Shown: in pieces, positions 3,027 to 44,155 of the stretch
How the letters are laid out: each line of letters opens with the position of its first letter
Numbering within the stretch: the stretch's first letter is position 1
Assembly (NCBI GenBank): GCA_021785125.1
Contig: JAJYGF010000004.1
Coordinates: 67,124 to 131,123 of the forward strand
From: a bacterium
Lineage (GTDB): Bacteria > Patescibacteriota > Minisyncoccia > Moranbacterales > UBA2206
DNA: 64,000 nt
Reading direction: 5' to 3'
Position numbers and translations under genes: made by a program
Notes under the pieces: generated by a model
Databases searched by the model: none
The model's input: only the letters and a program-made list of their open reading frames with translations
Told to the model about the DNA's origin: nothing

Positions 3027-3028
3027 AT

Positions 3029-28724: not shown

Positions 28725-28779
28725 GCAGTTATCCTAAAACTTAGTTTTAGGAATTTCCTGAATTTCCTAAAGCAAAATT

Positions 28780-29508: not shown

Positions 29509-29665
29509 AGTTTCAGAATTACGAATTATGAATGCTGAATTACGAATAATTGCTATCTGTAATACAAGCCAAGTCTAGCATTTAAATGGATGAAATTCAA
29601 GAAATTTGACATTGCTATTAAATTATTATTAGTATATATAAAACTGAATTGAAAGGAGGGTTGAA

Positions 29666-30016: not shown

Positions 30017-30017
30017 T

Positions 30018-30770
30018 TTATTTTATTTCTTTTCCGCTTTTCCAAGCGATTTCAAAGATCGGTTTGATTGAATTCACGAGCGATTCGGATTCAATGACGA
30101 CAATGAAAGGCTCTTCTTCCAGTGAAGTTATGTCAAGCTTGTTATCATATAAGGTAAAATCCATGGAAAAATCTTTCACATCCGGCAGATAGCGGACCTC
30201 TTGGTTCAATTCTTTGAATTTTCTCATTATTTCCCGATTGAATTCATTGTTTGAAACTAAATGTCTGCCCCTCTGGAGATTTATCAGACCTTTTCTATAG
30301 TTGTTTATCCATTCATCTATGACTTTTGGAAAAACTTTGTCTATCTTTTCATAAGAAGAAATGAAAAATGCATCTTTGGCTTCGTTCATTTCTTTGTAAA
30401 CATTCAGAATCCCTTCTTTTGTCTCATGATAAATTATTTTCGGCCTCACTTTTCCTTTGTTGTGCAAGGTTCGCAACATCGGCAGCATCTCTGAAAAATT
30501 TTTGGTCGTTGTCCGAAGCTGAGTCAAAATAACAGAGGGGTCGAGGGCATGGTAGGTGTTTATCTTTTTATTCGGTACCTCATTCGCATAACCTCGTTTA
30601 ATGAGTCCTTCGAGCAAAACATAAATGATTGAGCGTTTCAGTCCGGTCACTTTTGATATTTCCGTCACGTTGCCTTGCCCCAATTCTAAAAGGGCCAAAT
30701 ATACTTCGGCTTCTTTTTGAGTGAAACCGGTCTGTTCCAATAATTTTACTAGATCTTGATCCATAGGCAT
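30018..30770 (-). CDS. TrmB-family transcriptional regulator
   Basis: LGFTQKEAEVYLALLELGQGNVTEISKVTGLKRSIIYVLLEGLIKRGYA (TrmB N-terminal HTH). The track start at 30794 is a TTG; the first ATG (MPMDQ) is used here. Confidence 0.7.
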   Translation of the reverse strand: MPMDQDLVKLLEQTGFTQKEAEVYLALLELGQGNVTEISKVTGLKRSIIYVLLEGLIKRGYANEVPNKKINTYHALDPSVILTQLRTTTKNFSEMLPMLRTLHNKGKVRPKIIYHETKEGILNVYKEMNEAKDAFFISSYEKIDKVFPKVIDEWINNYRKGLINLQRGRHLVSNNEFNREIMRKFKELNQEVRYLPDVKDFSMDFTLYDNKLDITSLEEEPFIVVIESESLVNSIKPIFEIAWKSGKEIK

Positions 30771-30776
30771 TAACTT

Positions 30777-30825
30777 TGGACATCGGATGTCCAAAAGGCA
30801 AGAAGGCGAGAGACATCCGATGTCT
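30777..30825. promoter_or_regulatory. Two 15 bp palindromes (GGACATC-G-GATGTCC and AGACATC-C-GATGTCT) immediately upstream of the trmB-like start
   Basis: Perfect inverted repeats spaced ~20 bp apart in the 5' region of the regulator gene; a candidate autoregulatory operator. Confidence 0.4.
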
Positions 30826-31025
30826 TTAATTTTCCAAGCTTATTTAGACTCTAACAAAGATAACAATATTTGTCAATATTTTTGATAAAAATAATTTTAA
30901 AATAGCAATTAAAGCCATAATTATGAAATCGATAGTATAAAGATATTGATAAATAACAAACTTTTGTTTATTATCAAACATTGCAAAAATGACAGTTGCT
31001 TAAAAACCAAATAGAGAGGTGAAAA

Positions 31026-31349
31026 ATGCCACTGACAATCAAAAAGGTTTCTAATTTGTGCAGGAAAACAGTTGTGATAAAAACAGTAGTTTTTGAAAGT
31101 CGTAAGGTCACACTTCGCGGAGTAATTTCAAAAATAAGATCAGGACAAAACTTCTGGGCTTTATTAACTGACAAAACTGGCTCGATGAGAATCTGTGGTT
31201 ATGGTAACCAGCTTTATGAAGACAACTACGACTATAGGAAGATAAAAGAGGGCGATACTGTTGTGGTTTCTGGATGTACTTTTGAAACATGGCCAAAAGA
31301 GATTCGTTTGGATATCTACTCCATACAAAAGGCGAAAGAGGAAAAATAA
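31026..31349 (+). CDS. OB-fold nucleic-acid-binding protein (RPA/SSB-like, hypothetical)
   Basis: Pattern VVIKTVVFESRKVTLRGVISKIRSGQNFWALLTDKTGSMRICGYGNQ...IKEGDTVVVSGCTFETWPKEIRLDIYSIQK resembles archaeal-type SSB/RPA OB folds. RBS agagaggtgaaaaATG. Confidence 0.45.
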   Translation: MPLTIKKVSNLCRKTVVIKTVVFESRKVTLRGVISKIRSGQNFWALLTDKTGSMRICGYGNQLYEDNYDYRKIKEGDTVVVSGCTFETWPKEIRLDIYSIQKAKEEK

Positions 31350-31444
31350 ACTTCTTTCTTCACCATCATCTTGCGCGAGGCGAACTTGTCTCGCGCAATC
31401 TAACTGGTGAGGAAAGTTGTTTAACAATCACATAGGAGAATGTC

Positions 31445-31867
31445 ATGGAAAACTGCAAACATGAAAACGAGCATGGCAATTTCTGCAGCAAATGCGGAAC
31501 GCCACTAAAGGAGAAATGCTCTGAATGTGGTAAGACGGAATGTCTAAGTAAAATTAAGAGAATTCAAGAAGAAGCTAGGCAATATGCCGATAAGAAAGTT
31601 TCTAAGAAAGTTGATAACTTTCTGGTTCGGGTTAATTTACTCGGGTCTGCTCTAAGTGTGATAGCAGCTTTTTTAACCGTAAAGATCACTTCAAGGAGGA
31701 TTGATATAGTAGGATTTTCAGCGTGGGTCATAATTGTTGTTGTTTTTTGGGCATTTTCTTTCGTATTTTTGATTATATGGGAAGAGAAAAGAAAAAAAGC
31801 GAAAGAAGATTTTTTCAAAAAACATCCTGATTACGCGGAAATTCTCAAAAAGGCGGAGGAAAAATGA
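31445..31867 (+). CDS. Zinc-ribbon (CxxC x2) N-terminal domain protein with two TM helices (hypothetical)
   Basis: CSKCGTPLKEKCSECGKTEC, then two hydrophobic helices, then a Lys/Glu-rich tail. Confidence 0.4.
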   Translation: MENCKHENEHGNFCSKCGTPLKEKCSECGKTECLSKIKRIQEEARQYADKKVSKKVDNFLVRVNLLGSALSVIAAFLTVKITSRRIDIVGFSAWVIIVVVFWAFSFVFLIIWEEKRKKAKEDFFKKHPDYAEILKKAEEK

Positions 31868-32100
31868 AATCAGATATAGACAAGGTAAAGAAACATCTAA
31901 TGAGGTTGGCATATATAATGTTGCCACTGTCCTTAATTAGTACCCCTTTTGTTTTAAAAAAGGGAGGTAGCTTGCATCTGGATTTTATAGCAGGTGTTTT
32001 CGATTCTATTCTGATCATAGTGCTAGCGCTTGTTTACCTGCCAAAATATGACCGCAGAAGACGGCTAAGGGAGGCGCGGCGCAGAACGGAATCGATATAG
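31864..32100 (+). CDS. Small membrane protein (hypothetical)
   Basis: Two TM segments. The ATGA start overlaps the stop of the previous gene. Confidence 0.35.
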   Translation: MKSDIDKVKKHLMRLAYIMLPLSLISTPFVLKKGGSLHLDFIAGVFDSILIIVLALVYLPKYDRRRRLREARRRTESI

Positions 32101-32149
32101 AAAGAAGCAGAAACTCTAGTTGATTTGCATAAAAGGCAGACAATGTCAC

Positions 32150-32236
32150 AAGCCTCGATCCTGAATAGGAAAGGGGCTTTAATTTTTTCAGAAGATTAGT
32201 CAATTTCTTGCATATGCAATCGGTTGACTAATTTTT
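32150..32236 (+). repeat. ~85 bp direct repeat, copy 2 (a non-coding duplicate of the ORF 29666-29953 3' end, plus palindrome copy 2 at 32196-32231)
   Basis: AAGCCTCGATCCTGAATAGGAAAGGGGCTTTAATTTTTTCAGAAGATTAGTCAATTTCTTGCATATGCAATCGGTTGACTAAT. The in-frame TAA 5 codons upstream shows it is a relic, not a gene end. Confidence 0.7.
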
Positions 32237-34174
32237 TCATATCGATAAAACAAATCTGTTTAACAAATTGTTTGTTGCGGCGAATATATTTTCCACAAGA
32301 CTGACTGCCCAATGTTTTCTGGCAGTCGGTTTTGAAAAATAATAAACATCGTTAAAATTTCGGAGAGATTTTTCCCGGGCTAATTTTATCGGCAGTTCTT
32401 TCTCCGGCGAATAGCTCAACAATTTTATTTCAATGTCTTTCTTCGAGCCATCGGCGGAATATTTTCCGAGGCTGTTTTTGATTTCCGCATCAGAATATAT
32501 CTTTTGCGCGTCCTGCGCGGAAGCGGGTTTTGGCGAAATGGGAACGTGGCCGGCCGATACGGCCAAGGCCGGATCATTTCGAGACAGTTTCCAAAACCAT
32601 CCCCTCCTTGTCTTTTCATAAACCGCGTCTTCCGGAACGGACTTTCCGGGGACGGCATATTTCACATGCGAAGCCGTTTTCCCGTTCGGATAGCGCAATT
32701 CGACCTTCGAGGACTTGTTGTTCAGGGAAAACTTGCAATCAGCGTATGTCAGGCGGAGAGTTTGGCCGGGTTTTATGAACAGATCGTCGGTGATTTTGTG
32801 ATTTTGCAATTTTTTGTTGCCGGTCGCCAGGCTCCAGCCTTTCAAATTTATTTTTTTCTTGTAATTGTTTTCGATCTCGACCCACTCGTTACCCTTGTCT
32901 TTGCCTTTCGGGTTGGGCGACAAGGCGATTATTTTGACGCTAAATTTCGGAAATTTTTCCACTTTTATTTTGAATGTCTCAAGTTTGTCTTCGCTGCCGT
33001 CGAAAGTTTCGAGAGTGGCCGTATATTTCCCCGGCTTCTCATATTTGTGCCGAGTGTTTTGCTGGTAACTTTTGTGCGAATCGCCGAAATCCCACGTGTA
33101 TTTTATCTTGTTGCGGTCAGAACTTGTCTTTTTCGCCTGAAAATCAGCGTAAATGCCGACGTAGATTTTTTCTTCCACCTCCGTTTCTATTCGGGAAGGC
33201 TTGCCGAATTTGTTTTTCTTTCCCGGTGTCAGGAATTTGCTCCAGCGCCATGCCTGTCCGTCGTAGCCGTAGGATAAATTTTCTTTGGCGCCGTCGTAAG
33301 AAATGGCGGAGACCGCTTGTCCGTCCGGAGAGAAAAGCGTGACTGATTCCGCGCCGGAATTGTTCAAGGCGAATTTATAGTCCGATTTGTAAACCACCAG
33401 ATAGCCTTTTGATTTTACGGAAGTGCCTTTCGGAAAGATGTATCTCCCGGTTTTAGAGCCGTCCCGCAAGATCCAATCGGACAAATCAGCGCTTCCATCC
33501 GCCGGATTGTATAATTCAATGAATTCATCCTGTCCGCTGGCAGGATCAGGCAGGATTTCATTTATAGCCATGTCTTTAGAATAAGTCATAGGTGCCGGCG
33601 TTTTTATTTTCGGGCATTTTTTCAGTTCGTCTTCTTCCGTGAAGGAAGAATTTTTCGGCGGATACGCCGATATCGCATCCAGGGCATCGCCATTTCTTTT
33701 TAAGGTTTGCGATTTTTCCGGATTGGGAGCATGGACGGTGTTTTTATAAGGATCCGTATTGGATCCCCAAGTCACGGAATCGATCTGGTTTCCGGACTTG
33801 TCAAAAAGCGCCAAACTGTAGTCGTTTGAAAGATAGTAAGTCTTGGTCGCATAGTCCGGGGCATCGTTTAAAGTGCCGCTAATATTCTCCCATAAATAAT
33901 AGCCTTTGGCCGGAATGCTGTTTTTCAGCGTGCCGATGGAAGCTTCCGAACCGCCCTTGGTGCGTCTTTTTAATTTCCATCCGGCCAATCCGACGGAGTC
34001 GCAAGCCGGGTTGTATAGCTCGATGAAATCATCGTCCGAATCGCTTCCGCCGGTCTGCACCGCGCTGATTACGATCGAACTGCTGTCGGCGCAAGAAGTC
34101 GGCGCAAAATTAAAAATTCCCGCCACGACGAAGAGGGGAAATAAAATGGCATACTTTTTGGTTTTATTTTTCAC
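32237..34174 (-). CDS. Secreted multi-domain protein with three lamin-tail-domain (LTD)-like repeats and a PKD domain
   Basis: Signal peptide; DDDFIELYNPACDSVGLAGWKL, QDEFIELYNPADGSADLSDWIL and GNEWVEIENNYKKKINLKGWSL (LTD signatures); YTWDFGDSHKSYQQNTRHKYEKPGKYTATLETFDGS (PKD). Confidence 0.65.
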   Translation of the reverse strand: MKNKTKKYAILFPLFVVAGIFNFAPTSCADSSSIVISAVQTGGSDSDDDFIELYNPACDSVGLAGWKLKRRTKGGSEASIGTLKNSIPAKGYYLWENISGTLNDAPDYATKTYYLSNDYSLALFDKSGNQIDSVTWGSNTDPYKNTVHAPNPEKSQTLKRNGDALDAISAYPPKNSSFTEEDELKKCPKIKTPAPMTYSKDMAINEILPDPASGQDEFIELYNPADGSADLSDWILRDGSKTGRYIFPKGTSVKSKGYLVVYKSDYKFALNNSGAESVTLFSPDGQAVSAISYDGAKENLSYGYDGQAWRWSKFLTPGKKNKFGKPSRIETEVEEKIYVGIYADFQAKKTSSDRNKIKYTWDFGDSHKSYQQNTRHKYEKPGKYTATLETFDGSEDKLETFKIKVEKFPKFSVKIIALSPNPKGKDKGNEWVEIENNYKKKINLKGWSLATGNKKLQNHKITDDLFIKPGQTLRLTYADCKFSLNNKSSKVELRYPNGKTASHVKYAVPGKSVPEDAVYEKTRRGWFWKLSRNDPALAVSAGHVPISPKPASAQDAQKIYSDAEIKNSLGKYSADGSKKDIEIKLLSYSPEKELPIKLAREKSLRNFNDVYYFSKPTARKHWAVSLVENIFAATNNLLNRFVLSI

Positions 34175-34194
34175 CCTTTGATTTTTTGCGAGAA

Positions 34195-34779
34195 TTACCC
34201 AATCTCGCCGTTATTTTCATGTATGATGTCGCGCAATTCTTCCGTTTCGCTCCGTTTCTGTTCTTTTTGCAGTCGCATGAGCAGGTCCTTTATTCCGTAT
34301 GGATCGGAAACATTTCTGAAAAGAAATTTTTCCTGCGTGCCGGCCGTCTGGATCTGCACGTCGCCATAATTCATAAAAGTCGGAATGACGCCTGTCACTT
34401 CCGTCGTGACATCTTGGATCTTGTCCAACTCGACTTCGCTGACATCGCGCGAAAAAAGCCCTTTTTGCTCGATATTTACGACGCGCCTCGTGGTAATGAC
34501 CCATGCGTCGAAATAATAATCGATCCAAACCAGAAAAAACATGAGAAAAACCAGCATAGCAAATAAGCTTTCTCCGAACATGAAAACGGCGTTGAAATCA
34601 TTCTCGTTCAGGACTGGGAAAAGCGCCGGCAGGGTTGTATAGCTGCCGATTAAAAAAAGCATCATCAAAAAGATCATCAAAAAGTGGTCGACGATGTTCC
34701 ACCAATGGCGATGAATGACGACTACGACTTCTTCGCCGCTTTGCTGGCCCTTGAAATGGAACAAATTTAAATCGAACAT
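34195..34779 (-). CDS. Bacterial PH-domain (bPH_2/YdbT-like) membrane protein
   Basis: Two N-terminal TM segments, then WVITTRRVVNIEQKGLFSRDVSEVELDKIQDV. Confidence 0.6.
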   Translation of the reverse strand: MFDLNLFHFKGQQSGEEVVVVIHRHWWNIVDHFLMIFLMMLFLIGSYTTLPALFPVLNENDFNAVFMFGESLFAMLVFLMFFLVWIDYYFDAWVITTRRVVNIEQKGLFSRDVSEVELDKIQDVTTEVTGVIPTFMNYGDVQIQTAGTQEKFLFRNVSDPYGIKDLLMRLQKEQKRSETEELRDIIHENNGEIG

Positions 34780-34789
34780 TTGTTTGCGC

Positions 34790-35014
34790 TTAGCCGATTA
34801 TTTTTAAAAACAGACCGTTCCAATCGATGGAGAAAAACAGGACGATGTTCGACAGAAGCAGTCCGGCGGAAATGACGATAAAAAATATTAGCATGACGGT
34901 TTTTACTTCTGAAGCGATGGAATATTTTACCATGTGATAGACCACAAAAAACGACGTGATAATGTACATTAGAAGGATAATTGCGTAGAGCGCCAGAATT
35001 ATCAAGGATGCCAT
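34790..35014 (-). CDS. Small two-TM membrane protein (hypothetical)
   Basis: 74 aa, hydrophobic, lying between ruvB and the bPH_2 gene. Confidence 0.3.
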   Translation of the reverse strand: MASLIILALYAIILLMYIITSFFVVYHMVKYSIASEVKTVMLIFFIVISAGLLLSNIVLFFSIDWNGLFLKIIG

Positions 35015-35024
35015 TTGTTTTTGT

Positions 35025-36086
35025 TTAGAGTAATTTGTTATCGGACGTGTATTTTATGCCGAGGTGATTATAAGCGTTTTCTGTCACTATTCTACCACGC
35101 GGAGTGCGAGCCAGAAAGCCGATCTGCAAGAGATACGGCTCATATACATCCTCGATCGTTTTTATTTCTTCGCTAGTTGCCGCGGCAATCGTGCCGAGCC
35201 CGACCGGCCCGCCATCGAACTTTTCAATGATGGTTTTCAGGATGTGTCTGTCGGAAGGTTCCAGTCCGACCTGATCGATATCGAGCATGGCCAGAGCTTC
35301 CTCGGCGACGGCACTATCGACAAATTTGCGATTCTTGATCTGTGAAAAGTCGCGCACGCGCTTCAGGAGGCGATTGGCCACGCGCGGAGTTTGGCGCGAA
35401 CAACTGGCGATTTTTTCCAGGCCGGAATCATGGATTTCGACGTCTAGAATTTTGCTGGAACGCTTAATGATGTCTCGAATATCCTTATTATCGTAAAATT
35501 CCAAACGGTAGGTGGCGCCGAATCGGTTGCGCAGGGGATTGGAAAGCGAACCGAGCTTGGTCGTGGCGCCGATCAAGGTGAACTTCGGCAGGTCCAATTG
35601 GATGGTGCGGGCGGACGGGCCTTTGCCGATAATGATGTCTAGCTTGAAATCTTCCATGGCGGGATATAAAATTTCCTCTATAGATTTGTTCAGGCGGTGG
35701 ATTTCGTCGATGAAAAGGATGTCGCCATCTTGCAGATTGGTCAAGATCGATCCGAAATCGCCGACGCGTTCGATGGCCGGGCCGGAGGTGGTTTTGATGT
35801 TCACACCCATCTCTTTGGCGATGATGTTGGCGAGAGTTGTTTTGCCCAAGCCGGCCGGTCCGTAAAGCAGGATGTGTTCGATCGGCTCCCTCCTTTTTTT
35901 GGCGGCTTGGATCAGGATGTCCAGATTTTTTTTGACCTTTTCTTGGCCGATATATTCTCCGAAATTCTGCGGACGCAAAGTGTTGTCCAGATTCAAATCT
36001 TCGCCGCTGGCTTTCGGTCGGACGGAACATTCCGAAGCATTGAATTGTTCTGAAGAATCGACAAGCATAGCCGTATTATAACCCAA
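35025..36086 (-). CDS. ruvB: Holliday junction branch-migration ATPase RuvB
   Basis: [31 protein letters not shown], sensor TTKLGSL. The true start may be the second ATG (MLVDSSEQ, 36068), which sits 6 nt after a TATAAT and would make the mRNA leaderless. Confidence 0.9.
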
Positions 36087-36340
36087 CTTGACAAAAAACC
36101 AAAGCTATGCTACACTGCCAAGTCATATGAAACTCGGCTTTTTCTGAAGCCTTTCGTGTGGCTAGCAGTAAATTGCAGGCAATGGTGGCTTCTATCTTTT
36201 GTCATCATTTCGGAAACTTTTTATCAAGATATGGGTAGGGCGGTCCAGGCTGCGCTATGCCTCGATACTGTTTCTTCCCGGGGGGCCTTGCTTTCCGGAC
36301 TTGCCTGCAGATTAGTGCGATTTCTTTATGTGAACTATAC

Positions 36341-36380
36341 GAAAAAAAGAGCAAGGATACGTTCCTGCTCTTCTTTTTTT
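36341..36380. terminator. Bidirectional hairpin terminator (A-run, hairpin, T-run)
   Basis: aaaaaaAGAGCAaggatacgttccTGCTCTtcttttttt. Confidence 0.5.
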
Positions 36381-36418
36381 GTCTGAGCCGCTGTTTTGCA
36401 CCTGAGCACACCTGATTA

Positions 36419-36503
36419 CACGTGATTTTGAAAACGTAGAGACGCAATTTATTGCGTCTCTAAACAGAAAAGACGCGATGAATCGCGTCTCTACAATCAC
36501 GTG
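36419..36503 (-). terminator. Tandem rho-independent terminators (two related hairpins inside an outer CACGTGATT/AATCACGTG palindrome) downstream of the tandem-GspE gene
   Basis: On the minus strand, GTAGAGACGCgattcatcGCGTCTtttctg and AGAGACGCaataaattGCGTCTCTACgttttc. Confidence 0.6.
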
Positions 36504-36536
36504 TTGTCATGTATTTTTCAGGTGCGAATCAGTGGT

Positions 36537-39500
36537 TCAGAGATCCGTTACCCGTTCCACTTCCTCAATCGTTGTTTCGCCTTCGATGACTTTCAGGATG
36601 CCGTCTTGCGCCATCGTGATCATGCCATTTTCGACAGCCTTGGCTTGCAGTTCCGAAGTGATGGCGCCTTGCATGATGAGCGCCTGGATGTCTTTGTCGA
36701 TCACGAACACTTCGCTCACTGTCGTTCGGCCCTTGTAGCCGATGCTGTTGCATTTTTTACAACCCTTCGGTTTGAAAATTTCCCCGATCGGAGGAATTTC
36801 CACGCCGGCTTTCGGCGAAATTGTTTTCAAGGCAGATTCGATCTTATTTTTTTCTTCCTCAGTCAACTCAGCCTTTTTTTTGCAAGAACATAATTTGCGC
36901 ACGAGGCGTTGCGCCATGAACGCGTTCACGCTCGATGCGATGTCGGAAGGGGACACGCCCATGTTGAGCATTCTTTGCACGGCGCCGGCCGCATTGTTAG
37001 TGTGGATGGTGGAAAGTACGAGGTGTCCGGTGAGGGCGGCTTGTACCGCGATTTGCGCCGTTTCATTGTCACGGATCTCACCGATCATCATGATGTCCGG
37101 ATTTTGGCGGAGCAGGGCACGAAGCGCGGTGGAAAAAGTGTATCCTTCTTTGTCATTGACCGGCGTCTGCAGGATTCCCTCGATCTGATATTCGATTGGA
37201 TCTTCCACGGTGATGATCTTCACTTCCGGTTTGTTGAGGACATTCAGGATACTATAAAGCGTCGTGGTTTTTCCACTGCCGGTTGGGCCGGTGTTCAAAA
37301 ACACGCCGTTCGGTTTGGAAATCATCTCAATAATCTTGTTCTTGTTCTGTTCACGGATGCCGATCTTGTTGATGTCCAATTCCTGGGTAGCTTTCGAAAG
37401 AAGGCGCATGACGACCGTTTCGCCGTATCCGCCGAGGATTATGGATACGCGCACATCGACCGATCTTTCGCGGACATCCTGGATATCTTCGCTGAATTTT
37501 ATGGAGAAGCGGCTATCGATGACGCCTTCGCGCACTTCTGTCTTTACGCCGGAAAGTAATTTTATTTCACCTAGCAGGTTTGGATATTCATTGAGCGGAA
37601 TGGCGATGATGGTTTGCAAAATGCCGTCGATGCGGAACCTGATTTTGACGTCGTTGGCTCCCGGTTCGATGTGAATGTCGCCGACGCTCAAAAGAGAAGC
37701 GGCGGAAAATATGATTTTATTGATCTCGGTTGTTTTGGAGGAATTGACTACTGCCTGCAGTTTGGTAAAATCGGACAAATTTTCCCTGGCTTTTTCATAA
37801 TTTTCCGGATCGACCAGAATGCCCTTACCCAAAGTCTGCGACATCAGTTTTTCATAGATCGTTTCCAAGAAATCTCCTTCGCCGGTCACGCGTTTCACCT
37901 CATCGATCGAAGTGATGCCTTTGACGGCCTTCAAGACTCCGTCCTGGAGCATGGTGATCATGCCGGCTTCCAAAGCGGCCATGGTCAATTCCGTTTCGCC
38001 GGCCAGGTTTAAGATCAATTTTTCAATCTCTTCATTGATTGTCAAAACCTCAAAGATTCCGATGCGGCCCTTGTAGCCGAGATTGTTGCATTTCGGACAG
38101 CCTTTCGGACGATAGAGCTTGTCGATCTCTTTCGGCACGTCCAACTTGGCCTTCGGGGAAATGATGGATAATATTTTTTTAATGGAATCGATCGATTCTT
38201 TGGCAGGCACATATTCTTCTTTGCAATCGCAGAGCTTTCTGACCAAGCGCTGGCCGATCAATGCGTTCGTGGAGGGTGCGATCAAGGACGGCTTGATGCC
38301 CATTTCAAGAAGACGCGGAATGGTGCCGACTGCGCTGTTGGTGTGGATGGTAGAAAGAACCAGGTGTCCGGTCAGAGCGGAATTGACGGCGATGTCAGCC
38401 GTCTCCTCATCTCGGATCTCGCCAACCAGAATGACATCCGGATCTTGGCGTACGATGGCACGCAGACCGGAGGCGAAAGTATAGCCGCGGGATTTTTCGA
38501 TCTGCGTCTGCGAGATGCCTTTGACTTCATATTCGATCGGGTCTTCGATCGTGATGATCTTGGTCTCCGGATCATTCAATTTGTTGATAATGGCGTAAAG
38601 CGTCGTGGTTTTTCCACTGCCGGTCGGACCGGTTGTCAGAATCATGCCGTTTGGAGCCTGGATCTGTTTTTGTATCTCTTCATAAGCCAATCCCTGAAGT
38701 CCCAGATTTTCCACGCCGACCTGGATGGAATCAGGATCCAGAAGTCGCATGACGACACTCTCGCCATAGTTGCCCGGAATGACCGAGACGCGGATGGCGA
38801 TTTTTTTTTCTTCAATATTGACTTCGAAAGTTCCGTCCTGGGCGATGTCGCGCAGATTGAGCTTCATGTCCGACATCATTTTGATCCTGGTGACGACCGT
38901 CTTGAAAACGTTGAGCGGCAGGAAGGCGACGTCATGCAGGACGCCATCGATGCGATAGCGCAGGCGGAACTCTTTTTCTTGCGGTTCGATATGCACGTCG
39001 CTGGCGCCGAGTTTGTAGGCGCCGCCCATGATGACGTTCAAGACTTGCGTGGTCGGCAATTCGTTGATGCGCTGTTTCAGGGTGACGAGATCCTTCAGAT
39101 ATTGGTCAAATTTCTTCAGATCCTCGCCGGTCAAATTGACGTCCAACTGGCTCAAAATGTCCGTAAAGACGATTTTTTTATAGCGTTCTTGGATCTTGGC
39201 CATGTTGTATTGAGAGACGACAAAAATTTTGGCGTCCCAGCCGTTGGCCGTCTTAAGCATCTCGACATAATCCGCCGTTTCGGCCGCGGTCGGATCGGTC
39301 GAGACGAAAGTGATTTTTTTGCCGGTCTTCTGGATGCAGGCCAGATTGAATTTGTGAGAATCTTCCTCGCTCAAAACTTTAATGCTGTCGTTTGAGATAG
39401 GAATTAAATTTGTGTCGACATAAGGCAGGCCGATGGCGGCCGCAAATGCGGAAGCCTGTTCTTCTTCGGATTGATGGCGCAGTTTGGTCAAGACTTTTTT

Positions 39501-39560
39501 GGTTTCTTTTTCTTTTTGCGTCTCTTCGGTTTGCGCTTGGTTTTGAATTATTTTAGGCAT
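36537..39560 (-). CDS. Tandem-fused double GspE/PilB-type secretion ATPase (two complete ATPase cores in one 1007-aa polypeptide)
   Basis: Half 1: T2SSE_N-like N-domain, Walker A TGPTGSGKTTT, Asp box DPDVILVGEIRD, His box LTGHLVLSTIHTN and a tetra-Cys Zn site (CDCK...CPKC). Half 2: TGPTGSGKTTT, NPDIMMIGEIRD, LTGHLVLSTIHTN and CSCK...CKKC. Confidence 0.85.
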   Translation of the reverse strand: MPKIIQNQAQTEETQKEKETKKVLTKLRHQSEEEQASAFAAAIGLPYVDTNLIPISNDSIKVLSEEDSHKFNLACIQKTGKKITFVSTDPTAAETADYVEMLKTANGWDAKIFVVSQYNMAKIQERYKKIVFTDILSQLDVNLTGEDLKKFDQYLKDLVTLKQRINELPTTQVLNVIMGGAYKLGASDVHIEPQEKEFRLRYRIDGVLHDVAFLPLNVFKTVVTRIKMMSDMKLNLRDIAQDGTFEVNIEEKKIAIRVSVIPGNYGESVVMRLLDPDSIQVGVENLGLQGLAYEEIQKQIQAPNGMILTTGPTGSGKTTTLYAIINKLNDPETKIITIEDPIEYEVKGISQTQIEKSRGYTFASGLRAIVRQDPDVILVGEIRDEETADIAVNSALTGHLVLSTIHTNSAVGTIPRLLEMGIKPSLIAPSTNALIGQRLVRKLCDCKEEYVPAKESIDSIKKILSIISPKAKLDVPKEIDKLYRPKGCPKCNNLGYKGRIGIFEVLTINEEIEKLILNLAGETELTMAALEAGMITMLQDGVLKAVKGITSIDEVKRVTGEGDFLETIYEKLMSQTLGKGILVDPENYEKARENLSDFTKLQAVVNSSKTTEINKIIFSAASLLSVGDIHIEPGANDVKIRFRIDGILQTIIAIPLNEYPNLLGEIKLLSGVKTEVREGVIDSRFSIKFSEDIQDVRERSVDVRVSIILGGYGETVVMRLLSKATQELDINKIGIREQNKNKIIEMISKPNGVFLNTGPTGSGKTTTLYSILNVLNKPEVKIITVEDPIEYQIEGILQTPVNDKEGYTFSTALRALLRQNPDIMMIGEIRDNETAQIAVQAALTGHLVLSTIHTNNAAGAVQRMLNMGVSPSDIASSVNAFMAQRLVRKLCSCKKKAELTEEEKNKIESALKTISPKAGVEIPPIGEIFKPKGCKKCNSIGYKGRTTVSEVFVIDKDIQALIMQGAITSELQAKAVENGMITMAQDGILKVIEGETTIEEVERVTDL

Positions 39561-39644
39561 AATGCTTTTTGTTTTTCTGTGTCTATTTTACTTTATTTTG
39601 GCAAATAAAAAAAGCCATCATCGACGGCTTTCATATTTTCAAGT

Positions 39645-40775
39645 CTATGCTCCCACCTCTTTTATTTTTTTAGAAACTATTTCGGCGGCTTCTTTCAGGT
39701 TTCCGACGGGCAAGCGTATTTCCAAAAGATCTTTTTTGAGCGCGCCGTCCAGAAACAAATGGGTTCTTTTCAACGACGCGAGATCGACCGACTCAATAAG
39801 GGCTATGGAAGAATCCGGAGTGTCGTTATACAGAGCGATAAATATTTTTCCTTCGCTGTAATTTTCCCGCAACTTTTCCAAAATCACGGTCAGATCTTCC
39901 GGGGTCGAGCGGCTTTGCACGAAATCTTCCACGGATAGTTCTGTCCAGACGGTTTTGGATTGCTCGTCCCAATTTAGGTTGGCCATGGCACGGCCCCATA
40001 ATTTCAAGATGTGGAGCGGCTGGGTCTTGTATAGCCAGCGCACGATTGATTGCTGATCGGCACCTTTGTCCATGAGTGTTGCGGCAGCCAAGAGCGCTTT
40101 CGGCGTCGTGTTTTTTTTCTGGAAGCTGTCAGTGGCGCTGATGAGTCCGGTTAGAAGGCAATCAGCGACGATTTTGTCAACCGCGCCATAATCGATCGAA
40201 TCCAGAGTCGCGCTTAAAATTTCACTGCAAGAAGAAGCGGTGATGTCCACCAGATTGATCTGGCCAAAATTATCATTGTCGCTCCGATGGTCAATATTTA
40301 CGATCGGCACTTCAAAAAAAAGATCCGGATTTTTGTCATATAGCCGGCCTAGTTTTTCCAAGTCCGGGCTGTCAATCACAACAATCAAGTCATATTTAAA
40401 CTTAGCCAGGATAAAAGAAAAATCGCGCGGATCAATAGCGCCCTTTTCCGGCGTCAGGTAGATATTGTATTTTCCATCGCCCTCTTCCGTTTTGATGCCG
40501 GTGATTTTGTTGTAAGTCGTATTGAATGACAGGACAAAGTCGCGCGCGCCGGAAATTTCATTCAAAATTCTTTCCGGCTTCGGCAAAAAATCATATTTTT
40601 GAAAGAGATGATTGGAGAAGGCGATGGTAGGGCGGACACCTTTTTTTTCTAGAAAAAAATAAAGCGCCCAAGCACTGCCAATCGCGTCGCCGCTGGGATT
40701 TTCCGGAATGAGAATGAGAATCTCTTTGGATTTTTCCAAAAAATTCTTGAATTGTTCCCGAGGCTCCAAAGTCAT
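39645..40775 (-). CDS. DHH-family phosphoesterase (NrnA/RecJ-like)
   Basis: DAIGSAWALYFFL (motif I-II region) and VPIVNIDHRSDNDNFG (the DHH-type motif is DHR here); length fits. Confidence 0.65.
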   Translation of the reverse strand: MTLEPREQFKNFLEKSKEILILIPENPSGDAIGSAWALYFFLEKKGVRPTIAFSNHLFQKYDFLPKPERILNEISGARDFVLSFNTTYNKITGIKTEEGDGKYNIYLTPEKGAIDPRDFSFILAKFKYDLIVVIDSPDLEKLGRLYDKNPDLFFEVPIVNIDHRSDNDNFGQINLVDITASSCSEILSATLDSIDYGAVDKIVADCLLTGLISATDSFQKKNTTPKALLAAATLMDKGADQQSIVRWLYKTQPLHILKLWGRAMANLNWDEQSKTVWTELSVEDFVQSRSTPEDLTVILEKLRENYSEGKIFIALYNDTPDSSIALIESVDLASLKRTHLFLDGALKKDLLEIRLPVGNLKEAAEIVSKKIKEVGA

Positions 40776-40887
40776 AAATTCAAATGAAGAGTTAAGATAG
40801 TATTACAAGATAGCAGGCAGGAAAGTTTATGTCAATTTCCCCCTGTATTTATTGACTTTTTTGGTCATTTGAGGTCTAATAGAAAAT

Positions 40888-41358
40888 ATGAAAAAAGAAA
40901 TAATTACAAACAATTTCCAGGAAACCCAAAGGTTGGGGACGGAGCTGGCGCACAAGTTGCAGGGCGGAGAAGTTATCTGTTTGGAGGGCGATCTGGGCAG
41001 CGGTAAAACCACTTTCACCCAAGGCTTATTGGCCGGCTTAGGCGTGGAAGGGCCGTATACCAGTCCTACCTTTCTTATAATGAAGCATTATAAGAAAGAA
41101 TTTCCAATTTCCAATTTCCAATTTCCAAATAAATCTCAAAAAGCAAATTCTCAAATCCAAAATATATATCATGTGGATGCGTATCGCATCGGCCCAGACG
41201 ATCTTTTAAATTTAGGCTGGGAAGAAATCATTGCTGACAAAAAGAATGTCGTAATCGTGGAATGGGCGGAACGGATAAAAGACATCCTGCCGGAAGATTG
41301 TTTGAAAATAAAATTTGAATGGATGGATGAAAAGCGGAGAAAAATTATTTTTGAATAA
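40888..41358 (+). CDS. tsaE: tRNA threonylcarbamoyladenosine biosynthesis protein TsaE, with an in-frame repeat-encoded insertion
   Basis: EVICLEGDLGSGKTTFTQGL...SPTFLIMKHY...HVDAYRI. The (AATTTCC)4 heptamer array at 41099-41126 encodes the extra FPISNFQFPN. Confidence 0.85.
   Translation: MKKEIITNNFQETQRLGTELAHKLQGGEVICLEGDLGSGKTTFTQGLLAGLGVEGPYTSPTFLIMKHYKKEFPISNFQFPNKSQKANSQIQNIYHVDAYRIGPDDLLNLGWEEIIADKKNVVIVEWAERIKDILPEDCLKIKFEWMDEKRRKIIFE
41099..41126 (+). repeat. Perfect (AATTTCC)x4 heptanucleotide tandem repeat inside tsaE
   Basis: aatttccaatttccaatttccaatttcc. A degenerate version of the same array lies inside ORF 54963-55400 at ~55217-55245. Confidence 0.8.
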
Positions 41359-41419
41359 ATCGTCAAATAGGCGATTTTTTCAGTTTGTATTATATTTCGT
41401 GAAAATATATACTTGAGAT

Positions 41420-44155
41420 ATGAATAAAAAAGCCAAGAAATTAGTTCTGATCGACGGCAATGCCATCGTTCATCGGGCGTATCATGCGCTGCCGCCGCTC
41501 ACCAACAAAAAGGGCGAGCTGTTGAATGCGGCCTATGGATTCACGACGATCCTGCTCAAAGTTTTGTCCGACATCCAGCCTGATTATATTCTGGCGACTT
41601 TTGATCTGGCCGGCAAGACCTTCCGTCACCATGAATATGAGCAGTATAAAGCGACCAGAGTCAAAGCGCCGGACGAACTGTATGTTCAATTCGACCGCGT
41701 CAAAGAAATCGTGCGCGCTTTCAATATTCCAATTTTTGAAAAAGAAGGGTTTGAAGCGGATGATATGATCGGAACCTTGTCATTTCAGGCTGAGGAAATC
41801 AAAGATTTGGAAACAATCATTGTGACCGGAGATTTGGATACCTTGCAATTGGTCACGCCGAAAACCAAAGTCTATGCCTTGCGAAGAGGGATGAGTGACA
41901 TCACGATTTATGATGAGAAAGCAGTCATGGAAAGATATGGATTCACGCCGGACAAGATGATCGATTTCAAAGGTCTTTGTGGCGACCAATCGGACAACAT
42001 TCCGGGCGTGAAAGGTATCGGTGAAAAAGGCGCCATCAATTTGATCAAAGAATTCGGAACGGTTGAAGATATCTATAAATCGATCGATAAGATAAAAGGG
42101 GCAACGCATGACAAGCTGGAGCGCGACAAGATGAACGCGCTTATGAGCAAGAAATTGGCGACGATCGTGCGCGACGTGCCGGTGAAATTGGAAATAGAAA
42201 AAAGTGCGGCGCATGATTTTGACCGGAAAAAAGTCACGGATCTTTTCCAAGAGTTGAGTTTTTTCAGTCTGATCAAAAGGATTCCGGCGCAGGAAGGACT
42301 CAAAGGTTCAACCTTTGATATTCCTGAAGATGCTTCAAGGTTGAACCTTGGAGAATCTGGTGGCGTCAAGGATTTCAAGTTTGAAACAGTTTCCGAAAAA
42401 ACCCTGCGAAAATTCCTGGAAGACAAAAATGAAGTAGCTATTTATATTCGTGCTATCGATGAAGATATTCGCGGCATCGCGATCGCGTACAAAACCGGAC
42501 GCGCCGGATACATTGAATGGAATGATGCGACCAAAAAAGAATTGCAAAATTTTCTAGAAAATAAAAAAAGCAAAAAGATCGGCTATGATTTAAAGAATGA
42601 TCTGGAAATTTTAGCGACAAATAAGATCTTGCTTGCCGGCTTGGATTTCGATGTGATGCTTGGCGCATACGTGGCTAATCCGGGCGTGAATATCGAGCTT
42701 AGAACTTTGGTTCTGGAAGAATTCGGCGAGGAATTGGAGGAAAATAAAAAAGGTCAACTGGGTTTGGGCTTGGAATCGCCGGAAAGCGTGATGCTTGCGG
42801 CTTGCCGCAAAGCGGACTATATCTGGAAATTGAAGAATATATACGCGGAAAAAATCAAAGAAATTACAAATGAACAATCAAAGAGCAAGGAGCTAAGCTC
42901 CTTTAAAGATAAAAGGAGCTTAGCTCCTTCGCTGCGAAATGTTTTTGATAATCTAGAGATGCCATTGGTTGAAATTTTGGCAGGGATGGAAAAAGCCGGC
43001 ATCAAACTCAACACCATAATTTTCGAAGGCATATCCAAAAAGATCGAAAAAAGGATCTCCAACCTGGAAAGAAATATTTACGATCTGGCCGGAACGGAAT
43101 TTAATATCAATTCGCCGAGGCAATTGGCGGATGTTCTTTTCATAAACTTAAAACTTCCGACGGTGGATATCAAAAAACTCAAAACCGGATATTCCACGGC
43201 GGCCGGCGAATTGGCAAAATTGCGGGGCGAGCATAAAATTATCGAGAAAATCGAGGAATATCGCGAAATTTTCAAGTTGAAAACAACTTACCTGGACACT
43301 CTTCCGACCTTGGTTGATGAGGATTCGCGTATCCATACCAAATTTAATCAGGCGGTGACGGCGACCGGCAGACTGTCTTCTTCGGAACCAAATCTGCAAA
43401 ATATTCCGATCCGCACCGATGTCGGACAGTTGTTGCGCACCGCTTTCGAGGCGGAGGATGGATACAGTCTAGTTGGCGCAGATTATTCACAGATCGATCT
43501 GCGCGCTGTGGCGCATGTCAGCCGTGATAAAAATATGATTGAAGCTTTCCAAAAAGGCGAGGATATCCATCGTGCCACGGCGGCTTTGATAAATAAAGTT
43601 ACACCGTCGCAAGTGACGGAGAAGATGCGCGGATATGCGAAGGCTTTGAATTTCGGCATTATTTATGGCATGAGCGTGTTTGGATTGTCGTCGCGCACCG
43701 GTTTGGACCGCGACGAGGCCAAGAAGTTCATCGATGCATATTTCGAGAAATTTTCGGGTGTGGCGGAGTATATGAAAAATACCCGGGATTTTGTTAAGCA
43801 AAATAAATATGTCGAGACGGAATTCGGTCGCCGGCGTTATATCCCGGAAATCAATTCGCCGAATTTCCAGGTGCAAAATGCGGCGGAGCGGATGGCGATC
43901 AACATGCCGATCCAAGGTTTGTCCGCGGACATCGTGAAGCTGGCCATGATTGACGCACAAAAACTGATCGACAAAGATTATAAAGATTCAGCCAAGATGG
44001 TTTTGCAGGTGCATGACGAACTGATTTTTGAAGTAAAAGAAGATGTTTGCGAACAATTCGCGCTAGATGTGAAAGATGTGATGGAAAATGTGTATAAATT
44101 ACGCGTTCCTTTAGTTGTTGATGTAAAAATCGGCGACAACTGGGGTGAAATATAA
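41420..44155 (+). CDS. polA: DNA polymerase I (5'-3' exonuclease plus polymerase; the 3'-5' exo motifs appear degenerate)
   Basis: N-terminus LVLIDGNAIVHRAYHA (FEN/5' nuclease). Motif A region DYSQIDLRAV, motif B RGYAKALNFGIIYGMS, motif C QVHDELIFEV. Confidence 0.9.
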   Translation: MNKKAKKLVLIDGNAIVHRAYHALPPLTNKKGELLNAAYGFTTILLKVLSDIQPDYILATFDLAGKTFRHHEYEQYKATRVKAPDELYVQFDRVKEIVRAFNIPIFEKEGFEADDMIGTLSFQAEEIKDLETIIVTGDLDTLQLVTPKTKVYALRRGMSDITIYDEKAVMERYGFTPDKMIDFKGLCGDQSDNIPGVKGIGEKGAINLIKEFGTVEDIYKSIDKIKGATHDKLERDKMNALMSKKLATIVRDVPVKLEIEKSAAHDFDRKKVTDLFQELSFFSLIKRIPAQEGLKGSTFDIPEDASRLNLGESGGVKDFKFETVSEKTLRKFLEDKNEVAIYIRAIDEDIRGIAIAYKTGRAGYIEWNDATKKELQNFLENKKSKKIGYDLKNDLEILATNKILLAGLDFDVMLGAYVANPGVNIELRTLVLEEFGEELEENKKGQLGLGLESPESVMLAACRKADYIWKLKNIYAEKIKEITNEQSKSKELSSFKDKRSLAPSLRNVFDNLEMPLVEILAGMEKAGIKLNTIIFEGISKKIEKRISNLERNIYDLAGTEFNINSPRQLADVLFINLKLPTVDIKKLKTGYSTAAGELAKLRGEHKIIEKIEEYREIFKLKTTYLDTLPTLVDEDSRIHTKFNQAVTATGRLSSSEPNLQNIPIRTDVGQLLRTAFEAEDGYSLVGADYSQIDLRAVAHVSRDKNMIEAFQKGEDIHRATAALINKVTPSQVTEKMRGYAKALNFGIIYGMSVFGLSSRTGLDRDEAKKFIDAYFEKFSGVAEYMKNTRDFVKQNKYVETEFGRRRYIPEINSPNFQVQNAAERMAINMPIQGLSADIVKLAMIDAQKLIDKDYKDSAKMVLQVHDELIFEVKEDVCEQFALDVKDVMENVYKLRVPLVVDVKIGDNWGEI

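What the first reader, a model, noticed from the sequence alone, without database searches (positions are those of the whole stretch)
36537..39560. Two complete GspE/PilB secretion-ATPase cores fused in tandem (1007 aa)
Each half retains Walker A (GPTGSGKTTT), the Asp box, Walker B, the His box (LTGHLVLSTIHTN) and its own tetracysteine zinc site. Both are therefore predicted to be catalytically competent. Type II/IV-pilus ATPases normally assemble as homohexamers of ~500-570 aa subunits. A covalent dimer would force a trimer-of-dimers ring with potentially distinct roles for the two cores (e.g. extension vs retraction, PilB-like vs PilT-like). No PilC/PilM/prepilin-peptidase genes are nearby in this window, although a pilin-like gene cluster lies at 2208-3742.
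Basis: seen in the sequence. Interest (0 to 1): 0.65.

Follow-up and report, generated by a model that had tools for sequence, protein, structure and literature searches.

The report
Naturally doubled type IV pilus motor ATPase
This gene from an ultra-small (CPR/Moranbacteria-type) bacterium encodes a pilus-assembly motor ATPase whose whole engine has been duplicated and fused head-to-tail, with both copies keeping every catalytic residue; the fusion is real and conserved in hundreds of relatives, and it offers a natural tool for working out how these six-part ring motors fire.

Summary
ORF 36537-39560 (-) encodes 1007 aa: one N1 domain followed by two complete PilB/GspE cores. Each core has an N2 domain plus a C-terminal ATPase domain (CTD) with Walker A, Asp box, Walker B Glu, His box, two Arg fingers and a tetracysteine site. 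The cores are 47% identical.

It is not an artefact. 281 double-core homologs were retrieved, down to 39% identity. The frame is intact in 13 complete species-representative assemblies. The junction helix is conserved, with no indels in 118 sequences.

By synteny (TsaE-DHH-[ATPase]-RuvB) it is the positional ortholog of the ordinary single-core PilB of related Parcubacteria.

A trimer of covalent dimers forming one pseudo-hexameric ring is the best model, but it is untested. The window holds no pilus partners; in two relatives PilC lies 5-6 kb away.

No publication describing tandem cores was found, though the sequences have sat in databases under generic names. Verdict: a new variant of a known kind, of moderate to good interest.

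The parts
36537..39560 (-). Whole gene: 1007-aa tandem double-core PilB/GspE-type ATPase (stop codon 36537-36539)
   Evidence: ORF list; Pfam 2x T2SSE; NCBIfam PilB/GspE in 2 stretches; identical protein P0001 is present in NCBI, ENA and Logan
39171..39560 (-). aa 1-130: poorly conserved N-terminal tail (1-25) plus a single N1 domain (about 26-130); there is one N1D per two cores
   Evidence: Aligns to the PilB N-terminus from residue 20; AF2 alpha/beta fold with pLDDT 75-87; MshEN/T2SSE_N Pfam hits in homologs only; no equivalent precedes core 2
39054..39170 (-). aa 131-169: N1-N2 linker; low AF2 confidence at 129-151
   Evidence: conservation 0.72
38706..39053 (-). aa 170-285: core 1 N2 domain. 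Arg fingers R257 and R272 correspond to PilBGm R271 and R286. T244 replaces the Arg equivalent to PilBGm R257
   Evidence: Mapping to 5tsg numbering; column statistics
37881..38705 (-). aa 286-560: core 1 ATPase domain. Walker A 311-318 (K317), Asp box E339/E343, Walker B E381, His box H399/H406, Zn site C444/C446/C488/C491
37734..37880 (-). aa 561-609: inter-core junction. Conserved helix GEGDFLETIYEKLMSQTLGK (560-579), then a variable stretch and the helices leading into N2D-2
   Evidence: Majority frequency 0.80-0.83, no indels in 118 sequences; AF2 helix 562-576; motif shared by Moranbacteria-type and Paceibacterota-type doubles but not by P0129, P0130 or P0137
37365..37733 (-). aa 610-732: core 2 N2 domain. 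Arg fingers R704 and R719; R684 retained. Lineage-specific signature: S->G627, QDG->IDS (681-683), P->L709
36540..37364 (-). aa 733-1007: core 2 ATPase domain. Walker A 758-765 (K764), Asp box E786/E790, Walker B E828 (RQNPD instead of RQDPD), His box H846/H853, Zn site C891/C893/C934/C937
36437..36492 (-). Two consecutive terminator-like hairpins with near-identical stems (AGAGACGC...GCGTCTCT) just after the stop codon
   Evidence: Terminator scan and sequence read
39610..39632 (-). Terminator-like hairpin after the upstream DHH gene, suggesting the ATPase gene is its own transcription unit
39645..40775 (-). Context: DHH-family gene, a conserved upstream neighbour
   Evidence: Pfam; synteny in L001, L003, L004, L006, L010 and L028
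35025..36086 (-). Context: ruvB, a conserved downstream neighbour
   Evidence: Pfam; synteny

Best explanation
This is the lineage's type IV pilus (type IV filament) extension ATPase, PilB. Its N2D+CTD motor core was tandemly duplicated inside the gene, giving N1D-[N2D-CTD]-junction helix-[N2D-CTD] in one 1007-aa chain.

Shown here:
- The fusion is real and conserved, and in the main family it is old.
- Both cores keep all residues known to bind and hydrolyse ATP, and both are under similar constraint.
- The gene occupies the same chromosomal slot as the single-core PilB of related Parcubacteria.
- A PilC platform gene co-occurs in related genomes.

Inferred:
- Three chains assemble into one six-core ring with alternating core 1 and core 2 positions, a pseudo-hexamer with true three-fold symmetry. 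This ring engages the PilC platform and polymerises pilins like an ordinary PilB hexamer.
- In an alternating ring, every pair of opposite sites is one core 1 plus one core 2. Under the C2 rotary model opposite sites act together, so both cores must stay active, which would explain why neither has decayed.
- The ring would carry three N1 domains instead of six, and would match chain for chain a trimeric platform with two cytoplasmic domains per chain.
For: Real and conserved.

Both cores intact: invariant residues are kept. They map onto PilBGm R271, R286, E357, T411, H413 and H420.

Equal constraint: CTD 0.87 versus 0.83, N2D 0.81 versus 0.80.

PilB/GspE type for both halves. Each core superposes on PilB/PilF structures at TM up to 0.91, normalised to the target.

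Positional orthology: single-core P0136 and P0143 sit in the same DHH-PilB-RuvB slot.

Structured, conserved junction with no indels.

PilC lies 5-6 kb away in L010 and L028 and is conserved across Moranbacteria.

Published model of a PulE6:PulF3 complex in which each of the two cytoplasmic domains of a platform chain binds one N2D (PMC10790770).

Copy numbers observed are 2, plus one unconfirmed 3. Both divide 6.

Doubling has arisen more than once: P0129, P0130 and P0137 have sister cores (bootstrap 85, 100 and 83) and unrelated junctions.
Against: No oligomeric state was measured or modelled. The AF2 monomer has pTM 0.45, so the relative position of the cores is undetermined.

The window contains no pilin, PilC, PilM, PilD or PilT gene, and the gene is monocistronic. 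The link to a pilus therefore rests on homology and on related genomes.

Fixed differences between the cores are not enriched on the N2D (9/110 versus 21/271, p=0.84), so core-specific docking to the platform has no statistical support.

The independent PVC-type double P0137 has a degenerate core 1. If that protein is functional, a ring with alternate dead sites may be viable, which weakens the argument that both cores must stay active.

Deep nodes of the NJ tree are poorly supported (C2 clade 35%, C1 clade 0%).
Confidence: 0.62

Rival explanations
1. Stacked double ring: six chains assemble so that the six core-1 units form one homomeric ring and the six core-2 units form a second ring stacked on it, as in tandem AAA+ proteins such as ClpB, p97 and NSF.
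For: Tandem ATPase modules in other ring ATPases do this (general knowledge). The AF2 monomer does not fix the inter-core geometry (pTM 0.45). Each core keeps all the residues an ordinary homo-oligomeric PilB has.
Against: [quoted passage not shown] In these ATPases the N2D face engages the platform (PMC10790770), so a second ring would be cut off from PilC. The effective junction is short and structured. Six chains would give 12 cores against a platform with six cytoplasmic domains.
Confidence: 0.12
2. Functional asymmetry with one regulatory core: both cores bind nucleotide, but only one (probably core 2) drives the cycle, while the other acts mainly as a structural or allosteric spacer, as alpha subunits do in F1/V1 alpha3beta3 rings.
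For: Core 1 has lost the Arg equivalent to PilBGm R257, which salt-bridges Asp-box E357 in the open ATP-bound interface. It is T in 102 of 134 doubles, whereas core 2 keeps R in 133 of 134. Core 2 carries its own fixed substitutions at otherwise invariant sites. The independent double P0137 has a dead core 1.
Against: Walker A Lys, both Asp-box Glu, Walker B Glu, both His-box His and both universal Arg fingers are kept in both cores across 281 sequences and down to about 40% identity. Constraint on both CTDs is similar. A purely structural core would be expected to lose catalytic residues over that divergence.
Confidence: 0.13
3. Division of labour into extension and retraction: one core behaves as PilB and the other as PilT.
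For: Some single ATPases, such as CpaF of Tad pili, do both jobs (PMC12019362, listed; PMC11656802). No PilT-type gene was seen in the window or in the ±10 kb flanks of 27 related loci.
Against: Both halves score as PilB/GspE and well below the PilT cutoff. Both carry the tetracysteine motif, which PilT/PilU lack. The two cores derive from a duplication of one PilB. Whole genomes were not searched, so PilT may exist elsewhere.
Confidence: 0.05
4. Artefact: two adjacent paralogous genes merged by a sequencing or assembly error, or a collapsed duplication.
For: Some public assemblies do show the gene broken: L029 into three ORFs and L027 with many frameshifts.
Against: The breaks in L029 and L027 are scattered rather than at the junction. 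PNPase is also split in L029, and a twin contig (L028) is intact. There are hundreds of independent intact versions. The junction is conserved and free of indels.
Confidence: 0.01

Closest known systems
PilB type IVa pilus extension ATPases (Geobacter metallireducens 5TSG/5TSH/6OLJ, G. sulfurreducens 5ZFR, Myxococcus 3JC8)
   Same: Residues 20-560 align end to end at E about 1e-109. Same N1D-N2D-CTD order, same catalytic residues, Arg fingers and tetracysteine site. Each core superposes at TM 0.87-0.91, normalised to the target.
   Different: Those are single-core chains of about 570 aa that form homohexamers. Here a second N2D-CTD core follows on the same chain, without a second N1D, joined by a conserved junction helix. 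Neither core alone reaches the NCBIfam PilB equivalog cutoff.
GspE/PulE type II secretion ATPases (Vibrio EpsE 1P9R, 4KSR/4KSS, 4PHT)
   Same: Nearly equal scores to PilB for both halves; same Zn site and packing-unit architecture.
   Different: The organism is a CPR bacterium. T4P genes are widespread in that group (PMC11665869), and Gram-negative-type T2SS are rare outside Proteobacteria (PMC8092324). No GspL, GspM or secretin context was found.
Thermus thermophilus PilF (6F8L, 5OIU, 5IT5)
   Same: An unusually long PilB-type ATPase (about 890 aa) built by internal domain repetition; its core aligns with each half.
   Different: PilF repeats the N-terminal GSPII-type domains and has one ATPase core. 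Here the ATPase core itself is repeated.
Alternating-paralog ring ATPases (F1/V1 alpha3beta3) and engineered covalently linked ring ATPases (for example single-chain ClpX); from general knowledge, not tested here
   Same: A six-site ring built from two kinds of position that alternate; covalent linkage fixes the order of the sites.
   Different: In F1/V1 one paralog is non-catalytic and the subunits are separate chains. Here both positions keep catalytic residues and are fused. These are different ATPase families.
Other natural double-core T2SSE proteins found here (P0129, P0130, P0137)
   Same: Two T2SSE cores in one chain of about 1000 aa.
   Different: Independent origins: their own cores are sisters (bootstrap 85, 100 and 83) and their junctions are unrelated. 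P0137 is from a non-CPR genome, carries two soluble PilC-type cytoplasmic domains at its N-terminus, and has a degenerate core 1.

Membership tests
PilT/VirB11-like secretion ATPases (Pfam T2SSE, PF00437) | Match to the T2SSE profile above the gathering score | tested here: met
   769.9 bits against a cutoff of 24.9, two stretches; each core matches the core HMM over positions 1-403
PilT/VirB11-like secretion ATPases (Pfam T2SSE, PF00437) | Walker A, Asp-box Glu, atypical Walker B with catalytic Glu, His box and two Arg fingers (the set listed by McCallum et al. 2017) | tested here: met
   Core 1: K317, E339/E343, E381, H399/H406, R257/R272. Core 2: K764, E786/E790, E828, H846/H853, R704/R719
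PilB/GspE clade (extension and secretion ATPases) | Tetracysteine zinc-binding motif, conserved in PilB/GspE and absent from PilT/PilU | tested here: met
   C444/C446/C488/C491 and C891/C893/C934/C937, at least 99% conserved in both cores
PilB/GspE clade (extension and secretion ATPases) | N-terminal N1 domain preceding the N2D-CTD core | tested here: met
   Present once, before core 1 (alignment to PilB from residue 20; AF2 fold). Absent before core 2. Pfam MshEN is not significant for this protein and weak in homologs
PilB equivalog (NCBIfam TIGR02538) / GspE equivalog (TIGR02533) | Score above the curated equivalog cutoff | tested here: inconclusive
   The whole protein passes (896 and 912 bits against 676 and 630), but only by summing two cores. 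Each half alone fails: 493/486 and 416/438 bits
PilB (type IV pilus extension motor), functional membership | Genomic association with PilC, pilins, PilM and a prepilin peptidase | tested here: inconclusive
   None in the 64-kb window. PilC lies 5-6 kb away in two related genomes and is conserved across Moranbacteria. Pilins, PilM and PilD were not searched genome-wide
PilB (type IV pilus extension motor), functional membership | Hexameric ring, ATP hydrolysis, requirement for pilus extension | not testable with these tools
   The AF2 monomer gives only pTM 0.45; no multimer prediction or experiment was available
PilT/PilU retraction ATPases (NCBIfam TIGR01420) | Score above the subfamily cutoff; no Zn motif; chain of about 345 aa without N1D | tested here: not met
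   185 and 168 bits per half against a cutoff of 319; both halves have the Zn motif
Tandem two-ring ATPases (type II AAA+ such as ClpB/p97) | AAA+ fold modules forming two stacked hexameric tiers | not tested
   AAA-family Pfam hits are P-loop-only matches with no significant stretch. Stacking could not be examined

The most novel reading that the evidence does not exclude
The doubled motor is a natural single-chain pair that locks the ring into strict core1-core2 alternation, so that one ATPase chain matches one two-domain PilC platform chain (3:3 chains, 6:6 domains). The two cores would then have become non-equivalent partners: for example, each docks a different PilC cytoplasmic domain, and each opposite-site firing pair is always one core 1 plus one core 2. 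If so, the family would give direct evolutionary evidence for the trimeric-platform/hexameric-motor architecture and for the C2 two-site firing model. It would also provide a ready-made system for mutating alternate sites only. The independent chain P0137, with two PilC-type cytoplasmic domains followed by two ATPase cores, would be a Rosetta-stone fusion pointing the same way.
Probability: 0.3. Interest if true: 0.72.

Novelty: new variant of a known kind. Interest (0 to 1): 0.58.

Why it matters
How PilB/GspE/PilT ring motors couple ATP turnover to pilin insertion is still argued, including C2 two-site rotation versus C3 or C6 schemes, and a dimeric versus a trimeric PilC platform (PMC5424180, PMC6858323, PMC10790770). 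In a homohexamer one cannot mutate only some of the six sites. A natural covalent pair that has kept both active sites across hundreds of lineages makes alternate-site mutagenesis trivial (E381Q versus E828Q). It fixes subunit order and predicts a three-fold ring that should match a trimeric two-domain platform.

The doubling has been maintained for a long time, has recurred independently, and may occasionally have extended to three cores. This suggests that pairs or triplets of neighbouring subunits are natural functional units of the ring.

For CPR biology, type IV pili are essential for host finding in the one group studied (PMC11665869). This is therefore probably a core lifestyle machine of Moranbacteria-type organisms, and it is currently annotated only as 'GspE/PulE family protein'.

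Tried and rejected
1. NJ phylogeny of 187 cores to count fusion events. The topology was suggestive, but deep clades have poor bootstrap support (C1 0%, C2 35%). I relied instead on junction motifs, signature residues and synteny.

2. Test for N2D-specific specialisation. Fixed core1/core2 differences are not enriched on the N2D (p=0.84), so the idea is kept only as a hypothesis.

3. Validation of the triple-core protein P0048. No second triple was found. Its middle unit is equidistant from its own units and from another organism's ortholog. Whether it is real or a chimeric assembly is unresolved.

4. AF2 of the full chain. The domains are good, but pTM 0.45 gives no inter-core geometry. A CTD1-N2D2 sub-construct prediction was prepared and then dropped, because the alignment is too shallow to carry coevolution signal.

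5. Foldseek against the PDB for any chain with two cores: none.

6. Rfam scan over the gene and its flanks: no match.

7. Prepilin-motif and extra-T2SSE scans of the window: nothing. PilC tblastn on the window: nothing.

8. Literature searches for tandem, fused or duplicated PilB/GspE/T2SSE: no description found. The library lacks most subscription journals, so absence is not proof.

9. Internal translation start at the conserved M573, which could yield a free core 2. I considered this only by recalling the codons; no Shine-Dalgarno scan or DNA read of the junction was run, so it remains untested.
Full report
OBSERVATION. The window holds an ATG-initiated ORF at 36537-39560 on the minus strand, encoding 1007 aa. 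Pfam reports T2SSE (PF00437) in two stretches at 769.9 bits. NCBIfam reports PilB and GspE models in two stretches. GPTGSGKTTT occurs at residues 311 and 758. TGHLVLSTIH occurs at 397 and 844. Eight of the nine cysteines form two CxC...CxxC sets, 444/446/488/491 and 891/893/934/937. Residues 146-559 align with 586-1005 at 47% identity over 421 positions, E=3e-141.

IS THE FUSION REAL? A search of 5.8 billion protein clusters returned at least 120 clusters of 1005-1024 aa that cover the query end to end at 69-100% identity. They come from NCBI, JGI, ENA and Logan assemblies and are labelled, where labelled at all, 'GspE/PulE family protein' of Candidatus Moranbacteria or Parcubacteria. A second search added about 110 more. 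An exhaustive HMMER scan of 1.84 billion representatives of 50%-identity clusters found 13 colinear full-length doubles at 39-53% identity. Counting cores with an HMM gave 281 doubles, 135 singles and one triple among the 427 proteins fetched. A scan of GTDB species-representative genomes found 17 loci. In all 13 complete ones the frame is open for 1004-1051 codons with two Walker A motifs, and L024, which runs off its contig end, also keeps both cores. Two more loci are cut by contig ends. One (L027) has frameshifts scattered over all three frames rather than at the junction. An older NCBI assembly splits the gene into three ORFs and also splits PNPase, whereas a JGI contig encoding the identical PilC, with the same gene layout, has the ATPase gene intact. 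The junction itself (residues 560-579, GEGDFLETIYEKLMSQTLGK) is as conserved as the catalytic domains and has no indel in 118 sequences. A merged pair of genes or a collapsed repeat is excluded.

ANATOMY. The chain reads as follows:
- a variable tail (aa 1-25);
- one N1 domain (about 26-130), which aligns with the PilB N-terminus;
- a low-confidence linker;
- N2D-1 (170-285) and CTD-1 (286-560);
- a junction helix (562-576), followed by helices 585-623;
- N2D-2 (610-732) and CTD-2 (733-1007).
Core 2 has no N1 domain. The duplicated unit begins in the N1-N2 linker.

Using the alignment to G. metallireducens PilB (PilBGm, offset 21 between chain index and native numbering), the residues McCallum et al. 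2017 describe map as follows:
- arginine fingers R271/R286 = R257/R272 and R704/R719;
- Asp-box E357 = E343 and E790;
- T411/H413/H420 = T397/H399/H406 and T844/H846/H853;
- R455 = K442 and K889.
Across 134 doubles, every column that is at least 90% conserved in single-core relatives is equally conserved in both cores, with a handful of exceptions. The Walker B Glu and the His box are present in 281 of 281 doubles in both cores, and the Walker A exceptions are GxxxxGK[ST] variants such as GPTSAGKT. Constraint on the two cores is similar: majority-residue frequency is 0.87 versus 0.83 for the CTDs and 0.81 versus 0.80 for the N2Ds.

DIFFERENCES BETWEEN THE CORES. In the Moranbacteria-type family, core 2 carries fixed substitutions at sites that are otherwise nearly invariant: S187->G627, QDG->(I/V)D(S/G) at 681-683, P262->L709, and RQDPD->RQNPD. 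Core 1 has replaced the Arg after QDG with Thr (T244). That position is T in 102 of 134 doubles and R in 104 of 130 singles, and core 2 keeps R in 133 of 134. [quoted passage not shown] Of 396 aligned positions, 128 are conserved and identical in both cores and 30 are fixed differences. These differences are not enriched in the N2D (9/110 versus 21/271, p=0.84). Where the ancestral state is clear, core 1 keeps it more often (9 versus 4). The cores are therefore mildly non-equivalent, with no sign of catalytic decay.

WHICH KIND OF ATPase? Each half alone scores best against PilB and GspE (493/486 and 416/438 bits) and far lower against PilT/PilU (185/168 bits, cutoff 319). Both carry the tetracysteine site that marks the PilB/GspE clade. 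Solved PilB, PilF and GspE chains each superpose on one core (TM up to 0.91, normalised to the target), and no solved chain spans both. The PilB-versus-PilT reading is not supported.

ORIGIN. The gene sits between a DHH-family gene and ruvB, with tsaE and polA beyond, about 23 kb from a dnaA-dnaN pair. That pair was identified only from ORF N-termini, and it lies where the GC skew changes sign. The same arrangement is found in doubles at 76% and 43% identity and in the doubles. Single-core PilBs of related Parcubacteria occupy the same slot: P0136 in DHH-PilB-x-RuvB, and P0143 in PilB-RuvB-YebC-RuvC near dnaA/dnaN. The double is thus the positional ortholog of the ordinary PilB.

Moranbacteria-type and Paceibacterota-type doubles share the junction motif (Y/F-[LIV]-E-x-[LI]-Y-x3-[MVI]...L), which points to one old fusion. 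In an NJ tree their core-1 and core-2 sequences form separate neighbouring clades with similar internal order, although deep nodes are weakly supported. Three other doubles have cores that are each other's closest relatives, with bootstrap support of 85, 100 and 83, and unrelated junctions. P0129 lies next to ruvB. P0130 lies next to tsaE/polA. P0137 comes from a non-CPR genome rich in sulfatases. Doubling has therefore happened repeatedly, or gene conversion has homogenised some pairs.

CONTEXT AND PARTNERS. The window has no prepilin-type signal motif, no other T2SSE core and no PilC homolog. The 'pilin-like cluster' at 2208-3742 yields only a sub-threshold T4SS_pilin hit for one gene. Terminator-like hairpins flank the ATPase gene, so it is probably monocistronic, and no Rfam family matches nearby. 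In two related genomes a 406-aa PilC (T2SSF_N+T2SSF) lies 5-6 kb from the double ATPase: on a 1.27-Mb contig of GCA_053613725.1 and on a 597-kb JGI contig. PilC is conserved in at least 120 Moranbacteria clusters. Four of these report the same longest-contig length as four double-ATPase clusters, which suggests shared contigs but does not prove it. T4P genes are reported to be widespread in Patescibacteria and essential in a Saccharibacterium (PMC11665869).

MECHANISM. Shown: a conserved single chain with two competent-looking PilB cores and one N1D. Inferred: three chains form one six-core ring with alternating cores. PilB hexamers are described as six 'packing units', each made of the N2D of one chain plus the CTD of its neighbour, working with C2 symmetry. 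In an alternating ring, opposite positions are always one core 1 and one core 2. Two-site firing would then need both, which fits the retention of catalysis in both. The published PulE6:PulF3 model has each of the two cytoplasmic domains of a platform chain binding one N2D. A (core1-core2)x3 ring would match that platform chain for chain.

Caveats apply. The oligomer is untested, since the AF2 pTM is only 0.45. The N2D is not preferentially diverged. P0137 has a dead core 1 (Walker A GSGTTT, Asp box EDPVQ), so if that protein is functional, rings with alternate dead sites may be viable. The main rivals are a stacked double ring and a partly regulatory core.

NOVELTY. The sequences are public. 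One example is KKU82539.1, 'General secretory pathway protein E'. However, I found no paper describing tandem ATPase cores in this family, and the library is incomplete. I class this as a new variant of a known kind. Its interest lies mainly in its value as a natural covalent-pair version of a motor whose firing order and platform stoichiometry are still debated.

Noticed in passing
L003:10001-14383 (JGI 3300022698, Ga0248662_100121; protein P0048): A 1460-aa ortholog in the same TsaE-DHH context carries three T2SSE cores. Its middle core is a mosaic, core-2-like in front and core-1-like in its last third, as unequal crossing-over between the cores of a double would produce. It is a singleton, equidistant from its own sister units and from another organism's ortholog, so a chimeric assembly is not excluded.
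   Followed up: partly
L008:10001-13144 (GCA_964384625.1, CAYLNH010000035.1; protein P0137): In a non-CPR genome (neighbours: sulfatases, ECF sigma, MoxR/BatA), a 1047-aa soluble protein has two PilC-type T2SSF cytoplasmic domains (about aa 3-100 and 101-208, no TM helices) followed by two T2SSE cores. Core 1 has lost the Walker A Lys and one Asp-box Glu. This is a possible Rosetta-stone fusion linking pairs of platform domains to pairs of ATPase cores.
   Followed up: partly
L005:10001-12985 (P0129) and L007:3226-6213 (P0130): Two further double-core PilBs lie at the same chromosomal slot (next to ruvB, or next to tsaE/polA). Their own cores are sisters (bootstrap 85 and 100) and their junctions differ from that of the main family. 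This means either independent duplications at one locus or gene conversion.
   Followed up: partly
window 28239-44155 and loci L001, L004, L006, L009, L010, L028: The pilB gene is embedded in a conserved block of DNA-repair and recombination genes (polA, tsaE, DHH, pilB, ruvB, bPH protein, LTD/PKD protein, yebC, ruvC). The block lies near a dnaA-dnaN pair, identified only from ORF N-termini, where the GC skew changes sign at about 14 kb. PilB-RuvB adjacency holds for both single- and double-core versions. Whether this reflects a link to DNA uptake or mere synteny is unknown.
   Followed up: partly
window 2208-3742: The 'pilin-like cluster' named in the finding: only the 272-aa product of 2208-3026 gives a hit, and it is just below threshold (T4SS_pilin PF18895, 26.4 bits against 26.6). 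That is the CPR type IV secretion pilin family, not type IV pilus pilins. The neighbours at 43-2139 and 3029-3742 have no Pfam match.
   Followed up: partly
window 36437-36492 (minus strand): Two consecutive hairpins with nearly identical stems (AGAGACGCGATTCATCGCGTCT and AGAGACGCAATAAATTGCGTCTCT) follow the stop codon. They sit within an otherwise unannotated gap of about 450 bp before ruvB that has no Rfam match.
   Followed up: partly
L029:1768-4731 (GCA_000990385.1, LBPU01000010.1) and L027:10001-13028: In some public assemblies the double ATPase is broken into several ORFs by frameshifts. PNPase is also split in L029, while a JGI contig with the same gene layout is intact. Such errors, together with 'partial' annotations, may have hidden the double architecture.
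   Followed up: yes
window 32237-34174 (minus strand): A 645-aa predicted surface protein with three Lamin-tail domains and a PKD domain, conserved in synteny downstream of ruvB in relatives.
   Followed up: no
L017 and L021: Two species-representative MAGs carrying a typical Moranbacteria-type double ATPase (73-76% identity) are labelled Candidatus Peregrinibacteria and uncultured Bdellovibrionales. These are probably binning or labelling errors on short contigs.
   Followed up: no
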